A stretch of 64,000 bases of DNA from Gammaproteobacteria bacterium (lineage in GTDB: Bacteria; Pseudomonadota; Gammaproteobacteria; Eutrophobiales; Eutrophobiaceae), in the NCBI GenBank assembly GCA_965248145.1, contig OZ252091.1, forward strand, positions 2,626,649 through 2,690,648, written 5' to 3'. The translations under genes and the position numbers were made by a program. Shown in pieces: positions 3,321 through 58,847 of the stretch; position 1 is the first letter of the stretch, and the number at the start of each line of letters is the position of its first letter. The notes beneath the pieces are model-generated. The model ran no database searches and had not been told where the DNA came from. It saw nothing but the letters and a program-made list of their open reading frames with translations.

Positions 3321-4754
3321 TCAGGCAAACAGGTTGCCGGGGTCCAGCGCCTGTTTGAGCCTTGTGCGTAATTCGCTCATTCCGGCGTTATCATAGCTTG
3401 CCAATGCCCTGTCCAGGTGGCCGGTGCTGATGTGGCTCACCCCGAATCCCCTGTCCGTCATCGTATCTATCAGCGCGTCAAGACAGGCGATAGCCCTGTC
3501 CTGGGCCGCGTCCTGATACGTGAGGTAAACCCGTTGAATAATGGAGCGCCAACCAACCGCATATTCCGTCAGGTAATCAAATCCTCTTTTTTGCAGCGTG
3601 TCGGTGACCAGTTTATTCATCTTCAATACCTGCCGGCCGTCAACAGGCGCGACAAAACCGGCGTACAAGTGTGAATGACCGGACCAGTTCCCCGGGTTAT
3701 TGAACTCGGTCGATGGTTGCCCGCGCATCATCCTCTCCCGGTTGGAAAACACCGGGTTTGTGGCCTGCGTCTTTAAATCGATGACCCTGGCTCCGCCAAT
3801 GCCGGCAAAAGCGCCCTGCACCATGGGCCATAACACATCGACGTTGGGGGGAGTGTTATACAGCGCGCCGTACAGGGTCCAAAGTCCCAGGCCATAATCC
3901 GTCTTCAGCCTTTCCATATCAACAGTATTACCGTCGGCATAATCCTGCCGGGACCTGAAAGGACTCACGTCGAGAAGCGGATTACTGATAACAACGGTGT
4001 TCGGTATGATCACGTTGACTTTAAATGATCGCAATATCTCAACGGCCTGTGCCATGTCACTGACAGCTTCCAGGGTGACTGCGAAAGGTTGATAAGCAGG
4101 CGGCGCCGGCATCAACCAGACCCCCATTTTGGTCACCACCCCGAGGTTGGATTGCGTAAACAAGCCATCCAGGTAGGGGCCGTAGGCATATTTCGCCAAT
4201 TGCCAGGTATTGCTGTTCGGCATGGCGCCCATACCCAGCCTGACCAACCCGCCGTCTGCCAGCATGACTTCCATCCCACACTGCATCATCGTATGATCGC
4301 CATACGCGGTATAACCAAACTCCCGGGCAGTGATACTGCCGGCAACGGAATTCAATCCATTCCTGTCACAGTCCACCCACAGACCGGTCTTGTTTTCCTC
4401 CAGGTACTCGTTCAGTTGCGCATAACTCACGCCCGGTTCCACCAGGGCATAAGCGCCTTTGGTGTTTACCTCCACGATGTTATTCATCCGGGATTGGTCC
4501 ACAACCAGGACATCCTTATCCGTTGAGGCATTGACCACACCCCCGTTAGCGGCAAGATTGGGCAGTATCCAGAGTGAAACACCTCTTTTGGCAGCGGCCG
4601 ACAATACTGTCCTCAACTGTTCAACGTCTTTGGGAAGAACCGCGCCGACAGGCGTTTTGCCGAAGCTCCCGTAACGCTCGCTGACAACCGAGCCTGACAA
4701 CACGGCGGTTTTACCCAGTTTACGCCTCAGTTCAGTGACTATCCGGTTTGCCAT
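3321..4754 (-). CDS. VAO/PCMH-family FAD-linked oxidase (vanillyl-alcohol oxidase / 4-cresol dehydrogenase flavoprotein-like), with no signal peptide.
   Basis: A 477-aa paralogue of the ORF at 7051-8691, showing the same block order (…GAYALVEPGVSY…, …MPAPPAYQPF…) typical of PCMH-type FAD-binding domains. Confidence 0.75.
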   Translation of the reverse strand: MANRIVTELRRKLGKTAVLSGSVVSERYGSFGKTPVGAVLPKDVEQLRTVLSAAAKRGVSLWILPNLAANGGVVNASTDKDVLVVDQSRMNNIVEVNTKGAYALVEPGVSYAQLNEYLEENKTGLWVDCDRNGLNSVAGSITAREFGYTAYGDHTMMQCGMEVMLADGGLVRLGMGAMPNSNTWQLAKYAYGPYLDGLFTQSNLGVVTKMGVWLMPAPPAYQPFAVTLEAVSDMAQAVEILRSFKVNVIIPNTVVISNPLLDVSPFRSRQDYADGNTVDMERLKTDYGLGLWTLYGALYNTPPNVDVLWPMVQGAFAGIGGARVIDLKTQATNPVFSNRERMMRGQPSTEFNNPGNWSGHSHLYAGFVAPVDGRQVLKMNKLVTDTLQKRGFDYLTEYAVGWRSIIQRVYLTYQDAAQDRAIACLDALIDTMTDRGFGVSHISTGHLDRALASYDNAGMSELRTRLKQALDPGNLFA

Positions 4755-4788
4755 CTACACTCATCCTGTCAGGAAACGGAATTTGTTT

Positions 4789-4920
4789 GCCACAGAGGAC
4801 ACAGAGATCACAGAGTGAATCGAGATTCTTTTTGATACTTGGGCAACCAGAATGGTTAGCAATTTATCTTGATCATCATTCATATTATTTTTTCTCTGTG
4901 TCCTCTGTGTCCTCTGTGGC
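4789..4920. mobile_element. MITE-like intergenic repeat (type A), full copy.
   Basis: Same terminal sequences as 3177-3300, with the 3' end duplicated (TGTCCTCTGTGTCCTCTGTGGC). Confidence 0.75.
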
Positions 4921-4935
4921 GTAAATGTTTAATTT

Positions 4936-5178
4936 TTAATGCACTTCGTCCGTTTTCGCGGGAGGAATATTGTGTTTGTATTCTTCAGGGTGATCCGGGT
5001 CTGCCCGGAACCAGGCTTCCCGTTTCGCATAGTCCGTGGATTCATCGGGCTCGCTGTCGCGCCAGGTAAACGAACAACGCCGGCAGTGAAAAACGGTCCA
5101 GACGATTTCATCCCCTTCCCTGCCCTGGTATTCGACGCGCAGGTGTTCTTCGGCTGAGCGGCAGCGGGGGCAACTCAT
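4936..5178 (-). CDS. Small zinc-ribbon subunit D of a VdcBCD/BsdBCD-type phenolic acid decarboxylase.
   Basis: 80 aa, with the CPRC...WTVFHCRRCSFTWRDSEP pattern characteristic of VdcD/BsdD/EcdD-like subunits. It overlaps the upstream UbiD-family gene by 4 nt. Confidence 0.65.
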   Translation of the reverse strand: MSCPRCRSAEEHLRVEYQGREGDEIVWTVFHCRRCSFTWRDSEPDESTDYAKREAWFRADPDHPEEYKHNIPPAKTDEVH

Positions 5179-6659
5179 TGGCTTTCCGCCTCTTTTTGCA
5201 GTTGTTGGATATATTTTGCCAGGTCATCAATTTCGACGCCCCTGGGTGGCGATACAATCTTCGCGTCACCGCCGATGGGGTCGGGAGGCATGAAACTGGT
5301 GGCGTCAATGATTAAACGATGGCCCTTGCCCGGAATTTCCGCGGCCGGGTCAATGATTACCAGAGGCATATTCGGTATGACGATAATATCGTTGGCGCGA
5401 GTGCGGGTGGACAAGGCCCACATCACCTGGTTGAGGTCAAAGGGATCGACGTCATCATCCACCAGGATAAGATTTTTCAGGTACATCAGGCCATGGGGCG
5501 TTCCCAGGGCGCGCATGGCCACTGACTTGGCAAAACCGGCAAACCGATTCTTCACTGAAATAATCCCGGTCAGGCCATGCTGGTACAAGGCATTCACCGC
5601 GACAACCTCAGGGAAGTTTTCCTTTAACTGGGAATAGATGGGCGCACTAGTGCTCAGCCCGATCAGCGTATCGTGTTCGGTCCAACCTTTGCCGATATAA
5701 ATATTTTCAAAGATCGGGTCGGTACGGTGGGAAACGGCGGTGACCTGGAATAAGGGGACATGCCGGATACCGCTGTAACTGCCCGGAAATTCTCCGAACG
5801 GCCCCTCCAGGCAACGCCGGTTATTCAGCAACTGCGCTTCTATTACCATCTCCGCGCCGGCGAGAATGTCCAGACCGTTGCCGGAGCGGGTCAATTCAAT
5901 GGGACTGCCCATCATCTGCGAGGCATAGGCAAATTCCGATTCATCGTAATTGACGGGCGTGGCGGCAAACATGGCCATGGCCGGGTGGTTGCCGAGCATC
6001 ACGGCGATTTTCAGCGGGACATCATCCTCTTCCGCCATGCGGATCTGTTGCGCCATATCGTGGGACGGGACGGACAACAAGGTGAACTTATCCGGACCTT
6101 GTACCTGGATGCGATAAATTCCCACGTTCTGTTTGGAAAAATTATCCGGGTCACGGGGATCGCGACTGACGATATTGGCCTTGGCAATATAAAAACCACC
6201 GTCCAGGGCATTGATACGATACAGGGGCAGCAGGTCATACAGGTTGACATCGGTCTTGATCCTGTTCTCATTCACCGGTGCGTCTTCCGGTTTCACCCTG
6301 TCTATCAACGGCCGGTCGGAACCCCAGCGACCCGTCAGTTCGTAGAATAATTCCCTGATAGTGGTCCCTTTCTGCCGACCCAGCAGCAAGGCAATATTGG
6401 AAAAACTGCCATGCACCCCTACCACGAGCCGTTTCCCCGGATAGCCGCGGATCTTGTCGAACAGGATGGCCGGCCCGGTCATCGCGTCGCGACCCGCCGC
6501 AACAACAACCTTACGGATATCGGGTTCAGGCATCACGACATCCGGCCAGGTAATACACTGTCCGTGCTCGGCCAGTAATTCGAGATAATCCCTCAAACAG
6601 CGGACCCGTTCGGCTACGGCCCGGGCCTCGGTCGATAAGCTGGAGGTTTCCATATCCAT
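5175..6659 (-). CDS. UbiD-family prFMN-dependent (de)carboxylase (VdcC/BsdC-like hydroxyarylic acid decarboxylase).
   Basis: 494 aa, with UbiD-family conserved blocks. Its start overlaps the stop of the preceding cytochrome c gene, and it is followed by a D-subunit gene with ubiX nearby. Confidence 0.85.
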   Translation of the reverse strand: MDMETSSLSTEARAVAERVRCLRDYLELLAEHGQCITWPDVVMPEPDIRKVVVAAGRDAMTGPAILFDKIRGYPGKRLVVGVHGSFSNIALLLGRQKGTTIRELFYELTGRWGSDRPLIDRVKPEDAPVNENRIKTDVNLYDLLPLYRINALDGGFYIAKANIVSRDPRDPDNFSKQNVGIYRIQVQGPDKFTLLSVPSHDMAQQIRMAEEDDVPLKIAVMLGNHPAMAMFAATPVNYDESEFAYASQMMGSPIELTRSGNGLDILAGAEMVIEAQLLNNRRCLEGPFGEFPGSYSGIRHVPLFQVTAVSHRTDPIFENIYIGKGWTEHDTLIGLSTSAPIYSQLKENFPEVVAVNALYQHGLTGIISVKNRFAGFAKSVAMRALGTPHGLMYLKNLILVDDDVDPFDLNQVMWALSTRTRANDIIVIPNMPLVIIDPAAEIPGKGHRLIIDATSFMPPDPIGGDAKIVSPPRGVEIDDLAKYIQQLQKEAESQ

Positions 6660-11297: not shown

Positions 11298-11368
11298 CTA
11301 CAAAAGACACAGAGATTAGAGCGTCGCCTCCGGCGACACCTTATCACACGCGCAAGCGGGGTCAGGTT

Positions 11369-11920
11369 TTAGTGAAACACCCTGGGTCGAAAGTCTGCCT
11401 CGTTGACGATACTGGCGCTGCTGCCGGTCGCCCGGATGACGTACAAGCCCTGGCGTTGTGCCTGGAGTACCACGTTAGAATCTGCCTTCAGGTATGCCAC
11501 GGCGCCCAGTATCCTGTTCCCCTTGTAGCGCCGTACCCACCCGGTGAAGCGCTCCAGCTTCGACAGAAAATGGGTCACGTCCTCAAGCCGTAACGTGGTC
11601 TTTACTTCCACCACCACTTCCTCGCCGTTCACGGCCAGAATATCAAACTCGTAATGCCGGCCCTCCTGTCCGCCCTTCACATTGGTTGAGGTTTCCTCCA
11701 CCGCAATCCCCTGCGCTTGTAACAGGGGCACCAGGTCACCTTCCACCAGACTCTCCATCAGCTTGCCCCAGCGACTGTTAAATTGCGCATCCGTCTTTTT
11801 TAACTGCCGGTCGGTTTCCTTTATCTGCCGGGATAATTCTTTTTGTTCCTCAGCAATGTCGCGCAGGATGTTCCAGATTTCCTCGGGGGTGGCGGGGGCT
11901 CGTTGTGGTTGGTTTTCCAT
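11369..11920 (-). CDS. Hypothetical protein with an N-terminal coiled coil and a C-terminal PD-(D/E)XK-like nuclease fold.
   Basis: Start chosen at MENQPQR, which is preceded by AAGGAG. The EFDILAVNGEEVVVEVKT segment resembles a D...E-x-K restriction-endonuclease-like core. No specific family recognised. Confidence 0.45.
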   Translation of the reverse strand: MENQPQRAPATPEEIWNILRDIAEEQKELSRQIKETDRQLKKTDAQFNSRWGKLMESLVEGDLVPLLQAQGIAVEETSTNVKGGQEGRHYEFDILAVNGEEVVVEVKTTLRLEDVTHFLSKLERFTGWVRRYKGNRILGAVAYLKADSNVVLQAQRQGLYVIRATGSSASIVNEADFRPRVFH

Positions 11921-12426
11921 GGTGACTTTCTCCTTTTTCATGTTGATGTTGCTAAATAGTAAAAGAGTAACGGGAGCATGTCAAAGTTAACAGTATGTCG
12001 CCAGGAGCGACTTATTGCACACGCAGAGGTTTGTCACACTCATTATCTTTGCGTGTGCAATGTGCGACCTGTCCCCCGTGTCCCCCGGACCCCACTGTCC
12101 CCCGATACGGGACCGTACACATTATATGTTACAGATACTGACAGTTTATCTATTCCTAACATTGATCTATACTGTTCCATACCATATATGATACGCTGTT
12201 TTATAAATACATAACATGCCCGTTTTCGTATCAGCGTACCGGGCAAGCTCTATCATGCCCGGTTTTGGCAGACGCGATGAGACGGGCAGATCATTAGAGG
12301 AGATAACGCGAATGAGATTTGAAAAAGCCTATTATGGTTGGACAGCGCGGCGCTTAACCCGGGAGGCTGCGGCGACAGTTGAGCAACCGGTTTCACACAC
12401 TATCTTCGCGAACCGCTAACAAAGGC

Positions 12427-12456
12427 TTGACATTCCTGATTTTTACTCACTAATAA
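12427..12456 (+). promoter_or_regulatory. Sigma70-like promoter (TTGACA - 17 nt - TAATAA) directly upstream of, and overlapping, the ATG that precedes the heptanucleotide repeat.
   Basis: Read directly: TTGACAttcctgatttttactcacTAATAATG. It marks the sharp boundary between AT-normal DNA and the GC-rich island. Confidence 0.35.
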
Positions 12457-13883
12457 TGTTCGACCGAGAGCCGAGAGCCGAGAGCCGAGAGCCGAGAGCC
12501 GAGAGCCGAGAGCCGAGAGCCGAGAGCCGAGAGCCGAGAGCCGAGAGCCGAGAGCCGAGAGCCGAGAGCCGAGAGCCGAGAGCCGAGAGCCGAGAGCCGA
12601 GAGCCGAGAGCCGAGAGCCGAGAGCCGAGAGCCGAGAGCCGAGAGCCGAGAGCCGAGAGCCGAGAGCCGAGAGCCGAGAGCCGAGAGCCGAGAGCCGAGA
12701 GCCGAGAGCCGAGAGCCGAGAGCCGAGAGCCGAGAGCCGAGAGCCGAGAGCCGAGAGCCGAGAGCCGAGTTGTGTCCGCAATTCGCCGGGGCGCGCCATG
12801 CCCCGGCTGGACGCAGCGTCACGAAGCGCGCCGCCTGAGCCTTCCCGGGCCGCGCGCTTCTTCCGCCCTGCCGATTGTTTCCTCCGCGTCGGGGCGGGGC
12901 TTGCGCGGGCGGGACGCCGTGGCCTCCCGGCGGGGCTGCTTGCAATCGTGTTGCTGGTCTTTCCGGTCGCTGCCGGAGCCGGGGCCGGCAATGCCACCGG
13001 CAGGCCGAGTTTTTCGGGGCAACCGATCCAAACCGGGGTGATTACCGCCATCACCAGCGGGATCGGGGATCCCGACGGGGTGGACACCGGCACTTTCGCA
13101 TACGAATGGCTTCGCTGTGACTCGACCGGCAACAACTGCAATACCACTGCCGGGACGGCCTCGACCTATACGCTGACCAATGCCGATATCGGCTTCAGGT
13201 TCAGGCTGCGGGTGAACTTCGAGGACAGCGATGGCAATGCCGAGTCGCGCACCAGCTTTCCATGGCCATCACGCTCCGGGAATGCGATCTACGCGTACCC
13301 GGCCTGCGCCGAGTCGGACTTGACGAGTCTCGACAGTATGAACCGAACGGCAATCTGGACCGGGACGCTGACGGTGGGGTTCTTCAAACAAGACAACACT
13401 TCCTTCTATGGGCGGGGACGGAGAGCTGGAACTTGGTACGGTCAACTCACCGATTCAGTGTTCTCTATCGATTCGAAAAACTACAGATTGCGCCTCCTCA
13501 ATTCGGAAGACGGCGGGACGGGGGACGGTGACCTTAACGTCGTATTCTACACCGCAACAAATGAAGCCTTGGGAAGCGCACACTACGCCGCACACCGCGC
13601 CGCTCTTGAGGAATATGCTCAAGTGCACATCTGCGACAAGGCGTTTGTCATAAGCGAAGCATCAAATTCGAACAGAAGTACGTATGTTTTTCTCGCTGCT
13701 TTTGAGCCCTTTCTGAGCGGGAGCACCCGGACGATACGCGTGAGCGTGCCGAATTCACTCTTGAACGCCGCACCGGAATCGATGGACAACAGCGTGGCGA
13801 CCAACGAGGACGAGGCCTACACCTTCCAGGTAAGCGACTTCCACTTCACCGACCCCGACATGGGGGCGCGCTCGCGAGCGTGA
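12456..13883 (+). CDS. 5' part of a giant GC-rich surface adhesin-like gene: heptamer repeat, signal/TM-like segment, cadherin/VCBS-like repeat. It is interrupted by a frameshift at about 13862-13866.
   Basis: Hydrophobic LLAIVLLVFPVAAGAGAG segment. Repeat module GVITAITSGIGDPDGVDTGTFAYEWLRCDSTG...YTLTNADIGFRFRLRVNFEDSDGNAES. The C-terminal domain (...YTFQVSDFHFTDPD) continues in the next ORF in another frame. Confidence 0.6.
   Translation: MFDREPRAESREPRAESREPRAESREPRAESREPRAESREPRAESREPRAESREPRAESREPRAESREPRAESREPRAESREPRAESREPRAESREPRAESREPSCVRNSPGRAMPRLDAASRSAPPEPSRAARFFRPADCFLRVGAGLARAGRRGLPAGLLAIVLLVFPVAAGAGAGNATGRPSFSGQPIQTGVITAITSGIGDPDGVDTGTFAYEWLRCDSTGNNCNTTAGTASTYTLTNADIGFRFRLRVNFEDSDGNAESRTSFPWPSRSGNAIYAYPACAESDLTSLDSMNRTAIWTGTLTVGFFKQDNTSFYGRGRRAGTWYGQLTDSVFSIDSKNYRLRLLNSEDGGTGDGDLNVVFYTATNEALGSAHYAAHRAALEEYAQVHICDKAFVISEASNSNRSTYVFLAAFEPFLSGSTRTIRVSVPNSLLNAAPESMDNSVATNEDEAYTFQVSDFHFTDPDMGARSRA
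12464..12769. repeat. Heptanucleotide simple sequence repeat, (CCGAGAG)n equivalent to (GAGAGCC)n, about 43 perfect copies.
   Basis: Perfect 7-bp periodicity over ~305 bp starting 6 nt after ATG 12456. Translated it gives (REPRAES)n in all three frames. Unit length is not a multiple of 3, so copy number sets the reading frame. Confidence 0.95.
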
Positions 13884-16800
13884 AGCTGGTGTCCCTGCCG
13901 GCGAAGGACACGCTCAAGCTCTTAACCGTGGCGGTGACGGCGAACCAGGTGGTGCCGGCGGGCGAGATCGGCAACCTGACCTACACCCCGGCCGAGAACG
14001 GGAACGGACCGGGCTACGACAGCTTCACCTTCAAGGTCAACGACGGCACCGACGATAGCGCGACGCCCAACACCATGACCATCGACGTGGCCTCGGTGAA
14101 CGACGAGCCGACGGGCCTGCCGACCATCACCGGCACGCTGACCGTCGGCCAGACGCTGACGGCGGACACCAGCGCCATCATGGACGTGGACGGGCTGACG
14201 AGCCCCGGCTACGGCTACGAGTGGATGCGGGCGGACCCGGGCCCTGTGAACCAGGAACCCATCGCCGGCGCGACCATGAAGACCTACACCCTGACCGACG
14301 CCGAAGCGGGCAAGGTGATCGCGGTGTCGGTGGCCTTCACCGACGACGGGGGCAGCAAACGGAGGCTGACCAGCGACTACTATCCGACAAGCGACACGGT
14401 GGCGGCCATCGCCCCCGGCAAGCCGAACGAACTCTTGGCGACGCCGGGCAACGCCCAGGTGACGCTGGATTGGATGGAGCCGACGAGCGACGGCGGGGCG
14501 GACATCACGGGCTACGAGTACCGCTGGTCGGAGGGCTCGACGGTGCCGGATAGCACGGCCTGGACCGCGGTGGCGGGCGGCGGCGTGCGGACGGTCGTCG
14601 TGACCGGCCTCGTCAACGACACGCAATACGCCTTCGAGGTGCGCGCGGTGAACAGCGCCGGCCCCGGCCCGGCGTCCGGCCCGGCGACCGCGACGCCGAC
14701 GGTGCAGTGGCGGCTGGTCAACGGGGCCGTGGCGCATGAGGGGCGGCTGGAGCTGCTCCACAACGGCGCGTGGGGGACGGTCTGCGACGACTACTGGACC
14801 GATGTCGAGGCGGACGTGGCGTGCCGGGCGGTGGGCTACTCAGGGGGCGCGGAGCGCTCGGAGCCGGGCGCGGAGCAGTTCCGGCGAGCCTATTTCGGCC
14901 AGGGCACGGGCGCCATCTGGCTCGACGACGTGAACTGTGTGGGCGACGAGGCGAGCCCGCTGATGTGTCTGCACGGGGGGGTCGGGGTGAACAACTGCGA
15001 CCACCGGGAGGATGTCGGGGTGCGGTGCAGGACGACCACGACGCCGCGGGTGGAGTCCATCGAGGTGAGCCCTGCGCCCGGGGGGAACGGGCGCTACGAC
15101 GCGGGCGAGACGCTGGCGGTGACGCTGGTGTGGAGCGAGCCGGTGACGGTGGCGACCCCGGCAGGCGCCCTGGCGCCGAAGGTGTGGGTCGCGTACGGCG
15201 TGGGCGTGGAGGCCAGGGCGGAGTATGCGAGCGGGTCGGGGACGGCGCGCACGGTGTTCGCGCACACGCTGACGCAAGCCGACAAGTTGGTGGATGACGG
15301 CGGACCGGTGTCGTACGAGGAGGTGCAGGTGTACCGCAACAGCCTGCGGCTGCGCGGCGGCGCCATCACGTCGGTGGCGGCCGGGGTGGCGGCGGCGCTC
15401 GGGCACGACGGGTACCCGGACGCGGCGCGCCAGCTCGAGGCGGCGGTGGTGGTGGGGCCGCCCGGCCTGAGCGCGGCGGGCGCCGACGGGGTCTGGGGTG
15501 CGGGCGAGACGGTGGAGGTGACGCTCGCCTTCAGCCGCGCGGTGACGGTGGACACGGCGGGCGGCACGCCGACGGTGGGTCTGCGGCTCGGCGGCTCGGC
15601 CGGGCGCAGCGCCGCCTACCTGCGCGGCAGCGGGACGACGGTGCTGGTGTTCGGTTACACGCTCGCCGGCGACGACGGCGCGCACACTGCGCTGCTGGTG
15701 CCGGAGAACAGCCTGGCGCTGAACGGCGGCGCCATCCGGGGCCGGCTGGCGGGGCTCGACGCGGCGCTCGGCCACGACGGCGCGGGCGAGGTGGTGGCGC
15801 CGCCGCCGCCGGGTGGGGCGTCCGGTCCGACGGCGCGCTTCGAGGGGCTGCCCGCGGCCCACGAGGGATCGGGCGCGTTTTCGTTCGAATTGCACTTCAG
15901 CGAAGAGCCCGAGGGCTTGAGCTACACGACGGTGGGCGGCGGGCTGCTCACGCTGAGCGGCGGCGCGGTGAGCGGCGCGCGGCGCCTCGCGCAGGGCAGC
16001 GATGCGGGCTGGGCGGTGAGCGTCGAGCCGGCCGGGGACGGCGACGTGATCATTAGCCTGCCGGCGCGGGCGTGCGGCGAGACGCACGCGATGTGCTTCG
16101 CCGGGCGGCCGCTGGCGGAAGCGGTCTCGGCGACGGTGCCGGGAGCGTCTTCGACGGCGACGGTGCCGCGGACGCCGTTCACGGCGTCGTTCTCCGGCGT
16201 GCCGCCGGAGCATGACGGCGCGGGCGCGTTCACCCTCACCCTCGCCTTCGGCGCGGAGCCGGCGGGGCTGAGCTACCGGACGGTGCGGGACAGCCTGTTC
16301 ACGGTGACCGGCGGCGCGGTGACGAAGGCGCGGCGGCTCAGCCCCCCATCGAACCGGCGCTACGAGCTCACCGTCGAGCCCGCCGGCGACGCGGCGGTGA
16401 GGCTTGCGCTGGCGGCGCTGCCGGCCTGTGGTGTGGCGGGTTCGGTGTGCACGGCGGACGGACGCGCGCTCTCGGGAGCGCTCTCGGCGACGGTGCCGGG
16501 TCCGGCGGCGCTCTCGGTTGCGGATGCGAACGTGCGCGAGGGGCCGGGGGCGGTGCTGGCGTTCCGGGTCACCCTCGACCGGACGCGCCATGCCGCGGTG
16601 ACGGTGGACTACGACACCTCGGACGGGGCCGGGACCAAGCCCGCGAACGCGGGTACGGACTATACCGCGAAGAGCGGCACGCTTACCTTCGCCAGCGGGG
16701 AGAGCAGCAAGACAGTCTCAGTCGTTGTGCTTGATGACAGCCACGACGAGGGTGCGGAGACAATGTCCTTGACGTTGTCGAACCCGTCCGGCGCCAGCAT

Positions 16801-17305
16801 CGCTGATGCCACGGCAACGGGGACTATCAACAACACCGATGCCATGCCGCTGGCCTGGCTGTCCCGCTTTGGCCGCACCGTAGGGACGCATGTAATGACC
16901 ATGGTGGACGAGCGTATGCTGGCGGCCTCGCAGCAGGCGTCCCACCTGACGTTGAATGGCCGACAGATGCAGTGGGGTACGCCGGGGTCGGCAGATACCA
17001 GTCTGTCCGAACGCACCCGCGCCCTGCTTGGCAACTGGACCCGGGACCGGCAGTCACTGGAGAGCCTGCTGAGCGGCAACGTGGGAGCAAGCCCGCGCGC
17101 AGTCCTGTCCCGCAGTTCGTTCTATTGGACCAATATGCCCGCGGACGGGTCGGATACAGGACAAGGAGTCGCCTCCGGCGACACCTTATTTGATTGGACT
17201 CCGGGTCAAGCCCGGAGTAATGACGGTCGGGGCAGGAATGACAACGGAGGCAACACCGTCACCCCGGGCTTGACCCGGGGTCCAGTTGATAATGTGTCGC
17301 CGTAG
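13880..17305 (+). CDS. 3' part of the giant adhesin-like gene, carrying a cadherin/VCBS-like repeat, a fibronectin type III domain, an SRCR domain, repeated Ala/Gly-rich beta modules and a Calx-beta domain.
   Basis: FN3 at ~14411-14700 (PGKPNELLATPGNAQVTLDWMEPTSDGGADITGYEYRW...). SRCR at ~14707-15030 (WRLVNGAVAHEGRLELLHNGAWGTVCDDYW...CVGDEASPLMCLHGG...VGVRCR). Calx-beta at ~16507-16840 (…DYDTSDGAGTKPANAGTDYTAKSGTLTFASGESSKTVSVVVLDDSHDEGAE…). The GTG 'start' is really the continuation of the upstream ORF. Confidence 0.6.
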   Translation: MKLVSLPAKDTLKLLTVAVTANQVVPAGEIGNLTYTPAENGNGPGYDSFTFKVNDGTDDSATPNTMTIDVASVNDEPTGLPTITGTLTVGQTLTADTSAIMDVDGLTSPGYGYEWMRADPGPVNQEPIAGATMKTYTLTDAEAGKVIAVSVAFTDDGGSKRRLTSDYYPTSDTVAAIAPGKPNELLATPGNAQVTLDWMEPTSDGGADITGYEYRWSEGSTVPDSTAWTAVAGGGVRTVVVTGLVNDTQYAFEVRAVNSAGPGPASGPATATPTVQWRLVNGAVAHEGRLELLHNGAWGTVCDDYWTDVEADVACRAVGYSGGAERSEPGAEQFRRAYFGQGTGAIWLDDVNCVGDEASPLMCLHGGVGVNNCDHREDVGVRCRTTTTPRVESIEVSPAPGGNGRYDAGETLAVTLVWSEPVTVATPAGALAPKVWVAYGVGVEARAEYASGSGTARTVFAHTLTQADKLVDDGGPVSYEEVQVYRNSLRLRGGAITSVAAGVAAALGHDGYPDAARQLEAAVVVGPPGLSAAGADGVWGAGETVEVTLAFSRAVTVDTAGGTPTVGLRLGGSAGRSAAYLRGSGTTVLVFGYTLAGDDGAHTALLVPENSLALNGGAIRGRLAGLDAALGHDGAGEVVAPPPPGGASGPTARFEGLPAAHEGSGAFSFELHFSEEPEGLSYTTVGGGLLTLSGGAVSGARRLAQGSDAGWAVSVEPAGDGDVIISLPARACGETHAMCFAGRPLAEAVSATVPGASSTATVPRTPFTASFSGVPPEHDGAGAFTLTLAFGAEPAGLSYRTVRDSLFTVTGGAVTKARRLSPPSNRRYELTVEPAGDAAVRLALAALPACGVAGSVCTADGRALSGALSATVPGPAALSVADANVREGPGAVLAFRVTLDRTRHAAVTVDYDTSDGAGTKPANAGTDYTAKSGTLTFASGESSKTVSVVVLDDSHDEGAETMSLTLSNPSGASIADATATGTINNTDAMPLAWLSRFGRTVGTHVMTMVDERMLAASQQASHLTLNGRQMQWGTPGSADTSLSERTRALLGNWTRDRQSLESLLSGNVGASPRAVLSRSSFYWTNMPADGSDTGQGVASGDTLFDWTPGQARSNDGRGRNDNGGNTVTPGLTRGPVDNVSP

Positions 17306-17319
17306 GCGACTGCAACGAG

Positions 17320-45757: not shown

Positions 45758-48088
45758 TTAAAATGAAAGGCGCACGCCGAATATACCGGAACGTCCCGGT
45801 AACGGCGCCAGTTCTTTTACAAAAGACGTATGCCGGCGTATCTCTTCATCAAGCAGGTTGCTGGCGCTGGCAAACAGGGTAACATTATTGCCGGCCTGAC
45901 TTAGTCGGTAGCTGGCATAGAGGTTCAACAAGTCATAACCATCGGTAGGCGTTTCAAACAGCGCGGTGTCATTCTGTTTATTTACACGGGTATAACTCAG
46001 GGTCGCATACCAGGGACCCTGAAAATAAGTCAAGCCGGCGCCAAACCGCCAGGGAGTAATACGCGGCAGGTTGACATTATCAGAACGCTTACCTTCCACA
46101 TAATCTGCCCATAAACGTATATCCAGCGAGCCACTTTCGCCTTCCAGGGCATGTACGACTCCTTCCAGCTCAAAACCCATGAACTCCGCATCGTCCTGGA
46201 CCTGGGCAACGAGCAAGTGGACGCCATCCTCGTCCGGGTCCCGGATACCGGCCAGGTCGCCGGCGAAATCATCATGCACCCAGTCAGCGATGCCATCCTC
46301 GTTCAGGTCCTGCTCCTTCAGGAATATGAAATCATCAATCCGGTTATAGAATAAATTGACCGTGAGGGTGAGCCTCCCCGTCGCTTTCCGCCAGTAGAAA
46401 TCAATATTAGTAGACTTTTCCTTGCTCAGCTCAGTATCGCCATACTCAAACGTCGTTGTCGCGAGATGCGGACCTGCAGTATACAACTCCTCCAGAGACG
46501 GCGCCCGTTGCGCATGGGTGGCGACAAGACCCAGTTCATAACCGTCGCGGTAGTCCCAGTTCAGGCCGCCGGAGATGCTGAACAGGTCATGGCTGGTTTC
46601 CCCGCCGTTATCAGCGCTGGTGTCCTGATATTCATATCTGGCGCCGAATTCCATGTGCCAGTTCCCCATGTCACCTTTTTCCAACAAGAACGCGGCAATG
46701 GACTCCAACTCTGAGGGCGGGACAAAGTCTTCTTCGCCTATCGCGGCAAAATCCTTGTAGTGATACTGCAGACCGACGGCCCCTTGCCAGCCACCGAGGG
46801 GGTGATGCACAATCTCGACGCGGGCTTCCATCTCATTATTGTCAAAGGCCACACCTACGTTGCCGTCGGCTTCCACTTCATCATGATGATAGTCGTTGTA
46901 TGACGAGCGCGTTTTGATCCGGTGTATGCCGATAAAAGGATCATATAAGGACGCCTCGAAGTCATAACGTGTCTGCCCCATGTCTATCCGTGGGCGGCCT
47001 TCTCCTCCATGCCCCCCTTCTTCCTCGTGATGTCCCTCTTCCTCATCATGCCCTTCTTCCTCATGATGTTCCTCTTCATCATCATGATCTTCTCCCTCAT
47101 GGAAATCAATTCCATCCAGCAGATCTGTTTCATCATCATGATGGTGGTCTCCCAGAATGCCATAGTTGTTGTCAAGTCGGCTCACGGAAAAGCCGATGAA
47201 CCCGCGTTCACCGATCCAGGATGCCCCTGCTGCCACACTTTCCGTTTCGATACTGCTGTTTTCCAGTACGCCTTTCTCCATCTCATCATCCGGGTCCCTG
47301 TCCAATTCGGCGAACCCGGGAATTTTGTAGTCGTCGGTATGACGTTTCATACCGTCGATGTGAAAGGCGAAATTCCCTGCTCCGACGCTGAAGCTTCCGC
47401 CGCCGTTCACACCATCGTTGACGGTTTCATATTGTAGCGATATATCGGCCTGCAGGTCTTCCGGGACATATTTGGGAATGCGATCATTAACGACGTTGAC
47501 CACGCCGCCACTGGCGCCACTGCCAAAAAGCAACGTGGCAGGGCCACGAAAAATCTCAATCTGCCGGGCAAACGCAGGCTCCGTAGGTACTGCATGGTCA
47601 GCGCCTATATTGGCCACGTCCATGGTACTGATGCCATTTTCGAGCACGCTTACCCGACTGCCGGCCAGACCGCGAATGACGGGACGTCCTACCGCTGCAC
47701 CGAAATCACCGGAGCTCACGCCCAGCTCATTGGCAACCGCCTCTCCAATATTATGGATGCTACGGCTTTCGAGTTGTTTTTTTGTCAATACCTGGGCAGG
47801 TCGCGCCATGTGTTCATCTATATCACCCAATGGGTCGGCAGTGACGATTATCTCTTCCATATACTCATGACCAGCCGATGTGTGGGTATGACCCCCCGGT
47901 GTAAGCGAACGCTTGGGCGGTGTATGGGTATGACTGGCCGGTGTGTGGGCGTGCTCATCCTCCGCAGGCACGCTGGCAGCCGGGTCGTGCGCATCGCCGG
48001 CAACTTCATCGGCAAATGAAAACGATGCATGGATAACCACGACGATGGTCAACGAGGCTATACCTATTAATCGTAATGAATCAGGCAT
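45758..48088 (-). CDS. TonB-dependent receptor with His-rich N-terminal extension and a His/Glu/Asp-rich surface loop (ZnuD-like metal-uptake receptor).
   Basis: Plug and barrel blocks. N-terminal HAHTPASHTHTPP...GGHTHTSAGHE, and an internal loop HHHDDETDLLDGIDFHEGEDHDDEEEHHEEEGHDEEEGHHEEEGGHGGEG. Confidence 0.8.
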   Translation of the reverse strand: MPDSLRLIGIASLTIVVVIHASFSFADEVAGDAHDPAASVPAEDEHAHTPASHTHTPPKRSLTPGGHTHTSAGHEYMEEIIVTADPLGDIDEHMARPAQVLTKKQLESRSIHNIGEAVANELGVSSGDFGAAVGRPVIRGLAGSRVSVLENGISTMDVANIGADHAVPTEPAFARQIEIFRGPATLLFGSGASGGVVNVVNDRIPKYVPEDLQADISLQYETVNDGVNGGGSFSVGAGNFAFHIDGMKRHTDDYKIPGFAELDRDPDDEMEKGVLENSSIETESVAAGASWIGERGFIGFSVSRLDNNYGILGDHHHDDETDLLDGIDFHEGEDHDDEEEHHEEEGHDEEEGHHEEEGGHGGEGRPRIDMGQTRYDFEASLYDPFIGIHRIKTRSSYNDYHHDEVEADGNVGVAFDNNEMEARVEIVHHPLGGWQGAVGLQYHYKDFAAIGEEDFVPPSELESIAAFLLEKGDMGNWHMEFGARYEYQDTSADNGGETSHDLFSISGGLNWDYRDGYELGLVATHAQRAPSLEELYTAGPHLATTTFEYGDTELSKEKSTNIDFYWRKATGRLTLTVNLFYNRIDDFIFLKEQDLNEDGIADWVHDDFAGDLAGIRDPDEDGVHLLVAQVQDDAEFMGFELEGVVHALEGESGSLDIRLWADYVEGKRSDNVNLPRITPWRFGAGLTYFQGPWYATLSYTRVNKQNDTALFETPTDGYDLLNLYASYRLSQAGNNVTLFASASNLLDEEIRRHTSFVKELAPLPGRSGIFGVRLSF

Positions 48089-50049: not shown

Positions 50050-50225
50050 TCCGACGCCGCTCGTTAGTTCTGGGTAGTTCTGGGGACACGGGGTAGTTCT
50101 GGGGACACTAGTTCTGGGGACACAATACTTGGGTAGTTCTGGGGACACAATACTTAATTTCCAATTAGTTCTGGGGACACAATACTTAATTTCCAATTAG
50201 TTCTGGGGACACAATACTTAATTTC
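50050..50225. repeat. Array of 6 direct REP-like units (TAGTTCTGGGGACAC[AATACTTAATTTCCAAT]) immediately upstream of the RAYT gene.
   Basis: Direct reading. The same REP consensus (GTTCTGGGGACACAATACTTAATT) occurs singly or in inverted pairs at about 43030, 43140, 44585, 44640, 50910, 51800-51920, 52365, 56000 and 56130. Confidence 0.75.
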
Positions 50226-57288: not shown

Positions 57289-58830
57289 ATGCCAGCTAAG
57301 AGGTTATCCATGCGCAAGATAAAAGAAGTACTTCGCCTGAAATGGGCAAACCATTGCAGTAACCGCCAGATCGCCAGGATCTGCAGTATCAGCCGTCCCA
57401 CCGTGGCTGAATATTTACTACGGGCACAAACGGCCCAGCTTGGCTGGCCACTAGCGCCAGAGCTGGATGATGGTGAGTTGGAACAACGCTTATTCCCCGC
57501 GACACCCAACCTGCCTGCCAGTGCACGCGGGGTGCCGGATTGGCCCGGCGTCTATCAAGACATGAGAGGCAAGAGCGTCACCCTGTTCCTGTTGTGGCAG
57601 GAGTATCGGGCAGGGTACCCGCAAGGGTATCAGTACAGTTGGTTCTGTCAGCACTATCGCGACTGGTTGAACAAACGGGACCCGGTGATGCGTCAGCACC
57701 ATCGCGCCGGTGAGAAGTTGTTCGTGGACTATGCCGGCCAAACCATCGGCGTGGTTGACAGCAGCACCGGTGAAATCCGTGATGCCCAGGTCTTTGTGGC
57801 CACGCTGGGCGCCTCCAACTATACCTATGCGGAAGCGACCTGGACGCAGACATTACCGGATTGGATAGCTTCCCATCAACGGGCCTTTCAGTTTATTGCG
57901 GGCGTGACCGAGGTCGTGGTCCCCGATAATTTACGCGCCGGGGTATCCAAAGCCCACCGTTACGAGCCGGACATCAATCCGACTTACCAGGACATGGCTG
58001 CGCATTACAACGTCGCCGTGGTACCTGCCCGTGTCAGGCGGCCCAGGGACAAAGCCAAGGTCGAAGTTGCCGTACAGGTAGTGGAACGTTGGATCCTGGC
58101 GGCGCTTCGCCGGCATACATTCTTCTCACTCGGTGAACTCAACCAGTGTATTGGACAACTGCTGACAGAGTTCAATGAACGGCCCTTCCAGAAATTACCG
58201 GGTTGTAGAAAAAGCGTGTTTGAAGCAGTGGATAAACCCGCACTGAAACCACTACCGACCAAACCCTACCAATACGCCGAGTGGAAAAAGGTGCGGGTCC
58301 ACATTGACTACCATGTCGAGGTCGATGGCCATTACTACTCGGTACCTTATACGCTGATCAAACAACAACTCGAGGCACGTATGACCCACTGTACGATTGA
58401 ATGCTTCCATAAAGGCCAGCGGGTGGCCAGTCATCCTCGCTCCCGGATAAAAGGGCGGCATACCACGGTGAACGAACATATGCCGACAACGCACCGGCAA
58501 TATGGTGACTGGTCGCCGCAACGTTTGACTGCCTGGGCAGAGAAGATGGGACCGGCCACTGTCAACGTGGTGACCCACATCCTTTCGGCCAGAGTACACC
58601 CGCAACAGGGTTACCGCGCCTGCTTAGGGATCTTACGTCTGGGTAAGGCCTATGGTGAGGCACGATTGGAAGCCGCCTGCCAACGGGCCGGACAACTCGG
58701 CACCTACCGCTATAGAAGTATTGAATCGATCTTGAAACACCGTCTGGAGAACCAACCCCTCCCGGCACAACAAGAACAGAACCTACCCCAGGACCACGGC
58801 AATATCCGTGGTGCTGATTATTATCAATAA
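57289..58830 (+). CDS. istA: IS21-family transposase IstA.
   Basis: 513 aa with an N-terminal HTH (MRKIKEVLRLKW...) and a DDE integrase core. Confidence 0.9.
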   Translation: MPAKRLSMRKIKEVLRLKWANHCSNRQIARICSISRPTVAEYLLRAQTAQLGWPLAPELDDGELEQRLFPATPNLPASARGVPDWPGVYQDMRGKSVTLFLLWQEYRAGYPQGYQYSWFCQHYRDWLNKRDPVMRQHHRAGEKLFVDYAGQTIGVVDSSTGEIRDAQVFVATLGASNYTYAEATWTQTLPDWIASHQRAFQFIAGVTEVVVPDNLRAGVSKAHRYEPDINPTYQDMAAHYNVAVVPARVRRPRDKAKVEVAVQVVERWILAALRRHTFFSLGELNQCIGQLLTEFNERPFQKLPGCRKSVFEAVDKPALKPLPTKPYQYAEWKKVRVHIDYHVEVDGHYYSVPYTLIKQQLEARMTHCTIECFHKGQRVASHPRSRIKGRHTTVNEHMPTTHRQYGDWSPQRLTAWAEKMGPATVNVVTHILSARVHPQQGYRACLGILRLGKAYGEARLEAACQRAGQLGTYRYRSIESILKHRLENQPLPAQQEQNLPQDHGNIRGADYYQ

Positions 58831-58847
58831 ACCTGAAGGAGAGCGCG

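What the first reader, a model, noticed from the sequence alone, without database searches (positions are those of the whole stretch)
14707..15030. Eukaryote-type scavenger-receptor cysteine-rich (SRCR) domain embedded in a bacterial surface protein
The segment WRLVNGAVAHEGRLELLHNGAWGTVCDDYWTDVEADVACRAVGYSGGAERSEPGAEQFRRAYFGQGTGAIWLDDVNCVGDEASPLMCLHGGVGVNNCDHREDVGVRCR carries the full SRCR cysteine pattern and its hallmark motifs (RLV.G...GR.E....G.WGTVCDD.W, the W.D.V.C.G.E..L..C run, and the C.H.EDAGV.C signature ending). SRCR domains are overwhelmingly metazoan, and bacterial occurrences are rare. Together with the FN3 and Calx-beta domains this suggests a host-interaction protein, or domain capture from a eukaryote, inside the GC-rich island.
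Basis: partly seen in the sequence, partly recalled or inferred. Interest (0 to 1): 0.6.

Follow-up and report, generated by a model that had tools for sequence, protein, structure and literature searches.

The report
Bacterial surface-protein gene carrying an SRCR domain
The animal-type SRCR domain is real, but it sits in a laterally acquired and probably broken adhesin gene of a kind that bacteria, mostly sponge symbionts, share widely among themselves, so it is not a one-off capture from an animal.

Summary
Observation confirmed. Window 14708-15031 encodes a full SRCR domain: Pfam PF00530 at E=9e-25, six cysteines (group-A pattern), and a model that matches the SCARA5 SRCR crystal structure at TM 0.85-0.89. 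All six residues of the DMBT1 dual cation site are conserved.

Interpretation partly supported.
- The domain is one module of a gene of about 1,500 codons (12798-17305) for a modular surface protein. Relatives end in an autotransporter-type beta-barrel.
- Bacterial SRCRs are not rare. A two-pattern scan found 188 SRCR-encoding stretches in bacterial species genomes, mostly sponge-symbiont MAGs, spanning ten or more phylum-level groups.
- Several relatives are collinear with this protein well beyond the SRCR domain.
- The GC-rich core (GC3 0.93, in a genome of about 50% GC) is 80-85% identical in DNA to two other contigs of the same metagenome. The immediate donor was therefore a high-GC bacterium, not an animal.

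This allele looks defective. It has a 1-nt frameshift in a G5 run (13862-13866). About 1.4 kb encoding the beta-barrel is missing compared with a sister strain, which carries a different mosaic allele at the same site.

A hypervariable perfect heptamer array lies in the 5' leader. It has 44 copies here and 6-62 in relatives.

I rate it a new member of a known kind, of moderate interest.

The parts
12427..12456 (+). Promoter-like sequence directly upstream of the heptamer array: TTGACA (12427-12432), an 18-nt spacer, then TAATAA (12451-12456).
   Evidence: Read from the sequence. The consensus scan did not call it, because its second hexamer lacks the final T. The same TTGACA-spacer-array arrangement precedes the arrays of L083 and L084, and a TATAAT precedes the array of L081. 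Inferred, not shown.
12464..12769 (+). Perfect heptanucleotide tandem array, (CCGAGAG)x43.7, equivalent to (GAGCCGA)n, in the 5' leader of the gene.
   Evidence: TRF gives 100% matches and score 612. Homologous genes carry arrays at the same relative place: L084 (GAGCCGA)x55.7, L083 (GAGCACC)x62.1, and sister strain L081 (CAGCCGA)x5.9.
12798..13866 (+). 5' part of the gene, up to the frameshift. It holds the conserved ATG at 12798, a signal-peptide-like N-terminus (RRGLPAGLLAIVLLVFPVAAGAGAG), an A9-type Ig-like module, an unassigned region, and the first half of a Big_9/cadherin-like module.
   Evidence: ORF listing. The ATG context gcgcgccATGcc is conserved in L081. IG_AIR9 matches residues 96-139. 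The signal peptide is judged by eye only.
13862..13866 (+). G5 run holding a 1-nt frameshift that splits the gene into ORFs 12456-13883 and 13880-17305.
   Evidence: Adding one G gives a single 1,502-aa ORF. It also turns the partial Big_9 hit (profile 30-83) into a full one (profile 1-83 of 89, 31.6 bits against a cut-off of 23.6) spanning the junction. Homologues align straight through the site: L051 q321-526, P0241 q323-535, P0274 q309-535.
13880..14692 (+). Second half of the Big_9/cadherin-like module, a second A9-type Ig-like module, and an FN3 module (14447-14692).
   Evidence: Pfam hits for Cadherin_5/Big_9, IG_AIR9 and fn3 (E=2.3e-11).
14708..15031 (+). SRCR domain of group-A type with six cysteines. 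All six residues equivalent to DMBT1 cation sites 2 and 3 are present.
   Evidence: Cation-site residues are taken from PMC7043408. Conservation across 125 bacterial SRCRs is.
15035..16519 (+). Four beta-sandwich (Ig-like) spacer modules, as two pairs of repeats. No Pfam family was assigned.
   Evidence: AF2 model with mean pLDDT 80.7, all-beta, four modules. Foldseek finds only generic multi-Ig/MG-domain chains. The modules are collinear with many bacterial relatives.
16514..16828 (+). Calx-beta module.
   Evidence: Pfam PF03160, E=1e-15.
16823..17215 (+). Linker that precedes the beta-barrel in relatives (motif PLAWLSRFGRTV...). Homology to relatives ends here.
   Evidence: tblastn of relatives' C-termini matches only 16823-17176. 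Window 16153-17215 is 75% identical to L081 14128-13024.
17215..17219 (.). Junction of a deletion of about 1.4 kb that removed the autotransporter-type beta-barrel coding region.
   Evidence: Window 17219-17301 equals the L081 intergenic stretch 11618-11536 (98.8%). L081 13023-11619 has no counterpart in the window. Relatives carry 470-575 aa after the AWLxRFGR motif and end in ...RW...PW or ...RF, whereas the window has 150 aa. Pfam Autotransporter or OMP_b-brl hits occur in the relatives' C-termini.
17168..17310 (.). REP/MITE-like element containing the deletion junction. It has a 22-nt repeat (17168-17189), an internal inverted repeat (17195-17284) and an inverted copy of the 22-mer (17290-17310). 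The ORF's last codons and its stop (17303-17305) are read-through of this element.
   Evidence: The 22-mer is identical to 11323-11344 at the left edge of the variable segment.

Best explanation
Window 14708-15031 encodes a genuine group-A-type SRCR domain. It is one module of a gene of about 1,500 codons (12798-17305) in an uncultured gammaproteobacterium.

Module order: signal peptide, Ig-like, Big_9/cadherin-like, Ig-like, FN3, SRCR, four Ig-like beta-sandwiches, Calx-beta, linker. Intact relatives add a C-terminal autotransporter-type beta-barrel.

Inferred mode of action of the intact protein: Sec export, insertion of the barrel into the outer membrane, and display of the passenger on the cell surface. 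There the SRCR would use its conserved acidic Ca2+ cluster to bind polyanionic ligands on host matrix or cells. It would act as an adhesin, or as a mimic of the host's own SRCR receptors.

Shown:
- The SRCR arrived here as part of a GC-rich block exchanged among bacteria of the same community, not directly from an animal.
- SRCR-bearing collinear homologues are widespread in bacterial MAGs, mostly sponge symbionts.
- The locus is hypervariable. A sister strain has a different mosaic allele at the same site, and a perfect heptamer array of very different copy number sits in the leader.

This particular allele is most likely inactive. It carries a frameshift in a G5 run, and the beta-barrel coding region is deleted.
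For: Domain identity:
- Pfam, PDB sequence search, AF2 model and Foldseek all agree.
- Six cysteines and all six cation-site residues are present. They are also conserved in 85-123 of 125 bacterial SRCRs, and the six cysteines in 125 of 125.

One gene, frameshifted.

Bacterial family:
- 188 SRCR-encoding stretches were found in bacterial species genomes.
- Multi-domain collinearity: L046 q637-1215 at 49% plus q1211-1439 at 46%; P0287 q637-1457 at 48%; P0265 q573-1388 at 48%.
- In an NJ tree of 213 SRCR domains the window falls in an all-bacterial clade of 12-16 members drawn from about 6 phyla or classes. Only 4 bacterium/eukaryote label changes are needed on the tree.

Anchor in relatives: their C-termini end in W or F and hit Pfam Autotransporter (best E=1.1e-10) and OMP_b-brl.

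Lateral origin:
- The gene has GC 0.69 and its core GC3 0.93, against host genes at GC about 0.52 and GC3 about 0.6. Relatives live in genomes of 61-73% GC.
- P0284 (88% aa identity) and P0321 (79%) are on other contigs of the same sample, ERZ25766727, next to transposases. DNA identity is 84.6% over 14675-16884 and 80.4% over 14405-16884.

Real chromosomal locus:
- The window is part of a 3.77 Mb contig at 98x coverage.
- Sister-strain contigs from other samples have flanks 94-98% identical, with a different fn3-SRCR-Calx gene plus barrel at the same site.

Barrel deletion.

Heptamer arrays.

Host taxonomy: Gammaproteobacteria.
Against: - Function is inferred. There is no expression, localisation or binding evidence.
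- The sponge origin of this sample is not documented. It is inferred from the record titles of relatives.
- SRCR-only phylogeny is weak. The window's sister taxa are bacterial in 74% of bootstraps, and an all-bacterial clade of 5 or more is recovered in only 45%.
- dN/dS between the window and the near-identical blocks is 0.7-1.2. This gives no sign of purifying selection, though a GC3 of 0.93 may depress dS.
- The signal peptide is judged by eye.
- The frameshift could in principle be a consensus error, because the reads were not available.
- Only 2 of 8 relatives' C-termini reach a Pfam Autotransporter hit. A profile search of PDB sequences found nothing.
Confidence: 0.75

Rival explanations
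1. Direct capture from the animal host. This bacterium, or its recent ancestor, picked up an SRCR exon from a sponge or other animal and fused it into a resident surface-protein gene.
For: The closest non-bacterial hits are animal SRCR exons at 50-56% identity, almost as close as the best species-genome bacterial hits at 57-60%. Single-exon SRCR units with the same six-cysteine pattern occur on the animal contigs L002 and L003.
Against: - The SRCR is embedded in a block 80-88% identical to other bacterial genes in the same sample.
- It is collinear with bacterial proteins on both sides.
- GC3 of 0.93 fits high-GC bacteria.
- The NJ tree places it in an all-bacterial clade.
Confidence: 0.04
2. 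The allele is still functional. The frameshift is an assembly error or is bypassed, and the barrel-less protein is made as a secreted or periplasmic SRCR protein, or exported by another route. Alternatively, the G5 run and the heptamer array are reversible phase-variation switches now in the OFF state.
For: - The reading frame downstream of the frameshift is open for 1,141 codons, with no further stops.
- The cysteines and cation-site residues are intact.
- The locus has the hallmarks of a contingency locus.
- Sister alleles L081 and L082 also carry a frameshift near their 3' end, so frameshifts may be part of its biology.
Against: - Loss of 1.4 kb of barrel-coding DNA is not reversible.
- All full-length relatives examined keep the barrel.
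- G5 is short for slipped-strand switching.
- dN/dS is about 1.
Confidence: 0.2
3. The SRCR modules serve bacterium-bacterium or predator-prey recognition, such as binding LPS, teichoic acids or other microbial polyanions, rather than host interaction.
For: SRCR arrays also occur in Myxococcota, Bradymonadia and Bdellovibrionales MAGs from lakes, groundwater and sludge (record titles). Some of these have 5-7 tandem SRCRs. Animal SRCRs such as DMBT1 bind bacterial surfaces through the same cation site (PMC7043408).
Against: Most of the closest relatives of this particular protein are from MAG sets that look sponge-derived, and they carry the adhesion modules (cadherin-like, FN3, Calx-beta) reported as enriched in sponge symbionts (PMC8163846). 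Neither reading has been tested.
Confidence: 0.2
4. Artefact: the GC-rich segment is a chimeric mis-assembly or host contamination inside a bacterial contig.
For: There are abrupt GC changes at both ends, and repeats lie at the edges.
Against: - The same gene neighbourhood (ArsB-type permease next to an SRCR/Calx-beta gene) appears in independent assemblies from two other samples.
- The contig has 98x coverage and is 3.77 Mb long.
- There is a continuous intron-free ORF with bacterial-type modules.
Confidence: 0.02

Closest known systems
Class A scavenger-receptor SRCR domains of animals (SCARA5, MSR1/SR-AI, MARCO; Pfam PF00530)
   Same: - About 105 residues with six cysteines in group-A spacing.
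- 44-48% identity to the SCARA5 and MSR1 SRCR domains, and TM 0.85-0.89 to SCARA5.
- All residues of the acidic dual cation site are conserved.
   Different: - It is encoded in a bacterial chromosome at GC3 0.93.
- It is flanked by FN3, Ig-like, Calx-beta and cadherin-like modules instead of collagenous or coiled-coil stalks.
- It has a 5-7 residue insertion before the FGQGTG motif.
- Ligand and function are unknown.
DMBT1/SALSA/gp340 and CD163 (group B SRCR)
   Same: Same fold and the same cation-site residues (D-D, D-D, N, E). Sequence identity is 42-47%.
   Different: It lacks the C1-C4 disulfide of group B: H13 and S/Y take the place of the two cysteines. There is a single copy here, not a tandem array, although some bacterial relatives have 5-7 copies.
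Type Va (classical) autotransporter adhesins with modular passengers
   Same: Relatives have an N-terminal signal peptide and a long beta-rich modular passenger. They also have a C-terminal domain of about 400 aa ending in an aromatic residue, which hits Pfam Autotransporter or OMP_b-brl.
   Different: - The passenger is beads-on-a-string Ig-like, SRCR and Calx-beta modules, not a beta-helix.
- The barrel is too divergent for most members to reach Pfam thresholds.
- The window allele has lost the barrel entirely.
Eukaryote-like / adhesion-domain proteins of sponge symbionts (cadherin, FN3, ankyrin, LRR and others; Robbins et al. 2021, PMC8163846)
   Same: - Animal-type extracellular domains in symbiont genomes.
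- Spread across distant phyla.
- Evidence of lateral transfer within the community.
   Different: SRCR is not among the domains those studies discuss. In the papers I could search, SRCR is always treated as a host receptor.
Haemophilus influenzae hmw1A/hmw2A adhesin loci with 7-bp repeats in the promoter/leader
   Same: A perfect heptanucleotide array lies between a promoter-like element and the start of a large adhesin gene, and its copy number differs between strains. In hmwA, more repeats correlate with less transcript (PMC2424069).
   Different: - The arrays here are longer (44-62 units against 9-28).
- They are GC-rich, and the unit sequence differs.
- No expression data exist.
- In L084 the array abuts the signal-peptide coding region, so a translational frame switch is also conceivable.

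Membership tests
SRCR domain superfamily (Pfam PF00530) | Profile-HMM score above the curated gathering threshold, over the full domain length | tested here: met
   87.3 bits against a cut-off of 26.1, E=9.4e-25, model positions 1-100 of 100.
SRCR domain superfamily (Pfam PF00530) | Conserved cysteine framework: six Cys forming three disulfides in group A | tested here: met
   C29, C42, C80, C90, C100 and C110 of the 114-aa segment align with invariant columns in 125 bacterial, 20 animal and 67 unassigned SRCRs. Disulfide formation itself was not testable.
SRCR domain superfamily (Pfam PF00530) | SRCR fold: a curved beta-sheet packed against one alpha-helix | tested here: met
   AF2 model at pLDDT 87.5. 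Foldseek gives TM 0.85/0.89 and rmsd 1.8 A to 7bzz, and all 50 listed matches are SRCR domains. This is a predicted, not a solved, structure.
SRCR domain superfamily (Pfam PF00530) | Acidic dual cation-binding site used for ligand binding (DMBT1 D1019, D1020, E1086; D1058, D1059, N1081) | tested here: met
   The window has D30, D31, E104, D76, D77 and N99 at the aligned positions. Actual Ca2+ or ligand binding is not testable here.
Group B SRCR (DMBT1/CD163/CD5/CD6 type) | Eight cysteines, including the extra C1-C4 pair | tested here: not met
   H13 sits at the C1 position and there is no Cys at C4 (VGYSGG). The domain has six Cys only.
Type Va autotransporter | C-terminal outer-membrane beta-barrel translocator | tested here: not met
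   Only 150 aa follow the AWLSRFGR motif, and tblastn finds no barrel remnant anywhere in the window. Comparison with L081 indicates a 1.4 kb deletion. Relatives do have the barrel: Pfam Autotransporter in 2 of 8 (best E=1.1e-10) and OMP_b-brl in 4 of 8.
Type Va autotransporter | N-terminal Sec signal peptide | tested here: inconclusive
   A basic stretch followed by LPAGLLAIVLLVFPVAAGAGAG lies about 40 residues after ATG 12798. No signal-peptide predictor was available. L084 has a clearer ...LLLALAALLAAPAPAQA/QTT.
Eukaryote-like proteins of sponge symbionts | Animal-type domain encoded in the genome of a sponge-associated bacterium, and enriched relative to free-living relatives | tested here: inconclusive
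   Record titles of most homologous loci look like sponge-symbiont MAG sets or taxa, for example bins prefixed RHO, IRC or COS, and Ca. Poriferihabitaceae. Sponge species with matching initials are named in PMC8163846. The nature of sample ERZ25766727 could not be looked up, and no enrichment statistic was computed.
Simple-sequence-repeat contingency locus | Perfect short tandem repeat in the promoter, leader or 5' coding region of a surface-protein gene, with copy number varying between strains | tested here: met
   43.7 perfect copies here against 5.9 in the sister strain at the same site, and 55.7 and 62.1 in homologous genes of the same sample.
Simple-sequence-repeat contingency locus | Repeat-number changes switch or tune expression | not testable with these tools
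   This needs read-level copy-number heterogeneity and expression data.

The most novel reading that the evidence does not exclude
SRCR-bearing autotransporter-type proteins are an unrecognised class of symbiosis factor. In this reading, phylogenetically distant sponge symbionts display copies of the very domain the host uses as its expanded pattern-recognition receptor. The domain would act as a decoy or mimic, or as a Ca2+-dependent anchor to host matrix. The symbionts would trade these modules as cassettes within a holobiont and tune or switch them with long heptanucleotide arrays. The gene in this window would be one decaying allele of that system.
Probability: 0.2. Interest if true: 0.75.

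Novelty: new member of a known kind. Interest (0 to 1): 0.45.

Why it matters
How filter-feeding sponges tell resident symbionts from food bacteria is an open question. Host SRCR receptors are a leading candidate for the recognition side. Here the same domain, with an intact ligand-binding site, turns up on the symbiont side. It is spread across many phyla, exchanged laterally within one community, and attached to contingency-type repeats. That gives a concrete set of proteins to test. It also shows that a 'metazoan' domain in a bacterium need not mean a local capture from the host, since the domain already circulates in a bacterial gene pool. For this specific window the practical message is more modest: the copy is probably a pseudogene.

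Tried and rejected
- A 29-sequence SRCR alignment was too diverse to seed the genome scan. A 14-sequence subset worked.
- The exact-sequence cluster look-up gave no organism names. Taxonomy therefore rests on NuoG homologues labelled 'Gammaproteobacteria bacterium' at 68% identity or less.
- A profile of the relatives' C-terminal domain found no solved structure by sequence. Pfam gave Autotransporter or OMP_b-brl hits for only some members.
- The consensus promoter scan did not call the TTGACA-N18-TAATAA site.
- A self-BLAST of the corrected protein reported no internal repeats at E below 1e-3. The repeat structure therefore rests on DNA repeats, on shared subject hits and on the model.
- The fold search of the four-module region gave only generic Ig/MG-domain strings, so no specific function is assigned.
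- Six of the eight full-text searches and four look-ups inside papers found no paper reporting SRCR domains in bacterial sponge symbionts. Absence from this library is not proof of absence.
- dN/dS was computed to test for constraint but is uninformative: values are about 1 and GC3 is extreme.
- Rejected: host-DNA contamination or chimera, and direct eukaryote capture at this locus (see the rival explanations).
Full report
**1.
The quoted peptide lies in ORF 13880-17305 (+). The stated start 14707 is one base out of frame, and the domain's first codon is at 14708. Pfam SRCR (PF00530) matches ORF residues 280-384 (window 14717-15031) across the whole model, with E=9.4e-25 and 87.3 bits against a cut-off of 26.1. 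fn3 and Calx-beta are also confirmed. A sequence search of PDB gives E=5.5e-30 to the SCARA5 SRCR domain, plus MSR1, neurotrypsin, LOXL2, DMBT1, M2BP, MARCO and CD163. An AlphaFold2 model (pLDDT 87.5) superposes on the SCARA5 SRCR crystal structure with TM 0.85/0.89 and rmsd 1.8 A. All 50 listed Foldseek matches are SRCR domains.

The domain has six cysteines. It lacks the C1-C4 pair of group B, so it is group-A-like. The residues that coordinate the two functional cations in DMBT1 SRCR8 are D1019, D1020 and E1086, and D1020, D1058, D1059 and N1081 (PMC7043408). All are present here as D30, D31, E104, D76, D77 and N99 of the 114-aa segment. They are also kept in most of 125 bacterial SRCR domains.

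**2.
ORF 12456-13883 and ORF 13880-17305 overlap in different frames, inside a Big_9/cadherin-like module. Adding one G to the G5 run at 13862-13866 gives a single 1,502-aa product starting at ATG 12798. The correction turns a half Big_9 hit into a full-length one. Homologues align straight across the junction.

The module order is as follows.
- signal-peptide-like N-terminus
- A9-type Ig
- an unassigned region
- Big_9/cadherin-like
- A9-type Ig
- FN3
- SRCR
- four Ig-like beta-sandwiches (AF2 pLDDT 80.7, with generic Ig/MG matches only)
- Calx-beta
- a linker with the motif PLAWLSRFGRTV

**3. Relatives are bacterial, numerous, and anchored by a beta-barrel.**
A scan of one genome per bacterial or archaeal species, using only two SRCR peptide patterns, found 188 SRCR-encoding stretches. 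The best 80 share 41-60% identity with this domain. By record title they come from Gamma- and Alphaproteobacteria, Acidobacteria, Binatia, Spirochaetia, Chloroflexota/Dehalococcoidia, Acidimicrobiales, Gemmatimonadetes, Nitrospinota, Myxococcota/Bradymonadia and Bdellovibrionales. Many titles look like sponge-symbiont MAG sets or taxa (bins prefixed RHO, IRC or COS; Ca. Poriferihabitaceae). The seven sponge species of one such study are named in PMC8163846. Some loci hold 5-7 tandem SRCRs.

Homology extends far beyond the SRCR.
- L046 (Alphaproteobacteria) matches corrected-protein residues 637-1215 at 49% and 1211-1439 at 46%.
- L047 and L048 (Paracoccaceae), L051 (Binatia), L012, L007 and L004 are similarly collinear.
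- P0287 and P0265 align over more than 800 residues.

Full-length relatives continue for 470-575 residues after the AWLxRFGR motif and end in ...RW...PW or ...RF. Of eight such C-termini, two hit Pfam Autotransporter (best E=1.1e-10) and four hit OMP_b-brl. The family therefore looks like autotransporter-type surface proteins with a beads-on-a-string passenger.

**4. The window's copy has lost the barrel.**
Only 150 residues follow the motif, and no barrel remnant exists anywhere in the window. A sister-strain contig (L081, another sample) has flanks 94-98% identical to the window. At the same site, next to the ArsB-type permease gene, it carries a different mosaic gene of 1,651 codons (fn3, SRCR, Calx-beta) with a barrel. 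Window 16153-17215 is 75% identical to L081 14128-13024. Window 17219-17301 then equals the L081 intergenic stretch 11618-11536 at 98.8%. So about 1.4 kb of barrel-coding DNA is missing here.

The junction lies in a REP/MITE-like element. Its 22-nt core, GTCGCCTCCGGCGACACCTTAT, also sits at 11323-11344, exactly where similarity to the sister strain ends on the left. Together with the frameshift, this makes a working surface protein in this genome unlikely. The loss of the barrel is structural and cannot be a base-calling error.

**5. Origin of the GC-rich island.**
The host is an uncultured gammaproteobacterium. It has a standard nuo operon and TonB-dependent receptors, and the best named NuoG relatives are 'MAG: Gammaproteobacteria bacterium' at 68% identity or less. 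The window belongs to a 3.77 Mb contig at 98x coverage. Host genes have GC of about 0.52 and GC3 of about 0.6. The gene has GC 0.69, and its core (13880-16822) has GC3 0.93. Collinear relatives sit in genomes of 61-73% GC, where such a gene is compositionally at home.

The closest homologues of all are P0284 (88% identity over SRCR plus two Ig modules) and P0321 (79% over FN3, SRCR and Ig). Both lie on other contigs of the same sample, next to transposases and with flanks of about 0.61 GC. DNA identity is 84.6% over 14675-16884 and 80.4% over 14405-16884. The island is therefore a block exchanged among bacteria of one community.

The top 'metagenome' hits to the domain alone are animal exons. 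They lie on contigs with EGF, Sushi and LDLa exons and many SRCR exons. At 50-56% identity they are no closer than the bacterial hits.

In an NJ tree of 213 domains the window falls in an all-bacterial clade of 12-16 sequences, made up of the collinear relatives. Only 4 bacterium/eukaryote label changes are needed on the tree. Bootstrap support is modest: the sister taxa are bacterial in 74% of replicates, and an all-bacterial clade of 5 or more appears in 45%. An ancient inter-domain transfer is plausible, but its direction and date are not resolved here.

**6. Regulation.**
A perfect (CCGAGAG)x43.7 array (12464-12769) starts a few bases after TTGACA-N18-TAATAA. It ends 28 nt before the conserved ATG. 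The consensus scan does not call this promoter, so it remains an inference.

The same arrangement recurs in related genes.
- L084 has (GAGCCGA)x55.7.
- L083 has (GAGCACC)x62.1.
- The sister strain L081 has (CAGCCGA)x5.9.

Each array is preceded by a TTGACA or TATAAT element. The closest precedent is the 7-bp repeat array upstream of the H. influenzae hmw1A and hmw2A adhesin genes, where more repeats go with less transcript (PMC2424069). In L084 the array abuts the signal-peptide coding region, so a translational frame switch is also conceivable.

**7. How it most likely works.**
Shown:
- domain identity
- modular architecture
- bacterial gene-pool origin
- locus hypervariability
- the two lesions in this allele

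Inferred for intact family members: Sec export, barrel insertion and surface display. Ca2+-bridged binding of polyanionic ligands by the SRCR would then serve adhesion to host matrix or cells, or mimicry of host SRCR receptors.

Alternatives are binding of other microbes (SRCR arrays also occur in predatory lineages) and a residual secreted function for this truncated allele. dN/dS against the near-identical blocks is 0.7-1.2. That fits relaxed or diversifying selection, but it is unreliable at GC3 0.93.

**8. Novelty.**
Searches of the paper library found SRCR discussed only as a host receptor in sponge holobionts. Cadherin and FN3 are the reported symbiont adhesion domains, and these are reported as laterally transferred. 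Database annotations already flag PF00530 in many of the bacterial proteins. I therefore file this as a new member of a known kind: eukaryote-like, modular, autotransporter-type adhesins of host-associated bacteria. The under-reported points are the SRCR module, its cassette-like exchange, and the heptamer arrays. Interest is moderate. The specific copy is probably a pseudogene.

Noticed in passing
window 12464-12769; L084 2027-2414; L083 2681-3115; L081 17318-17358: Long perfect heptanucleotide arrays lie at the 5' end of homologous SRCR genes in four genomes or contigs. Units are GAGCCGA, GAGCACC and CAGCCGA, with 5.9-62 copies. Each array is directly preceded by a TTGACA or TATAAT promoter-like element. 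The arrays have no start or stop codon in any sense frame. In L084 the array abuts the signal-peptide coding region.
   Followed up: partly
window 11323-11344, 17168-17189, 17290-17310; L081 12886, 13051, 17600, 18069: A 22-nt repeat, GTCGCCTCCGGCGACACCTTAT, is part of a REP/MITE-like palindromic element and brackets the strain-variable segment. It also contains the junction of the barrel deletion. In the sister strain two copies lie inside the coding linker and are translated (...QRVASGDTLFDWMPGQARHD).
   Followed up: partly
window 11345-12400: This segment is absent from the sister strain L081. It holds a 190-aa ORF (11369-11941, minus strand) with only sub-threshold Pfam hits (Hjc resolvase, DUF3782), and short C-rich repeats (gtcccccg) around 12070-12105.
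   Followed up: partly
L081 11672-16923; L082 5208-9281: The sister-strain allele at the same site is a different mosaic: its SRCR is only about 29% identical, and the module order differs. It is itself split by a frameshift near the end of the barrel, leaving a 110-aa ORF ending ...GSMPW. L082, from a third sample, has the same 110-aa ORF.
   Followed up: partly
L008, L033, L031, L017, L052: Bacterial proteins with 5-7 tandem SRCR domains occur in Binatia, Bdellovibrionales and a groundwater 'Deltaproteobacteria' MAG. This resembles animal DMBT1/CD163-type arrays, but with six-cysteine domains.
   Followed up: partly
L086 4023-4616 (protein P0110): A small bacterial gene encoding a signal peptide plus a single SRCR sits between identical IS66 copies. 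Its 3' end is overlapped by the adjacent IS66 transposase gene (4604-6268), which may have truncated it.
   Followed up: no
L002, L003, L085: The best 'metagenome' hits to the SRCR domain lie on animal-like contigs from similarly named ENA assemblies. The ORFs are exon-sized and carry EGF_CA, Sushi, LDLa and up to 12 SRCR units, all with six cysteines.
   Followed up: partly
window 57289-59579: An IS21-family element is present: IstA transposase at 57289-58830 and the IstB ATPase at 58848-59579.
   Followed up: no
window 50134-50225 and 47015-47101: There is a perfect 32-nt x2.9 tandem repeat in an intergenic region. A separate 18/36-nt repeat lies inside the ZnuD-like TonB-dependent receptor gene (45758-48088).
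   Followed up: no
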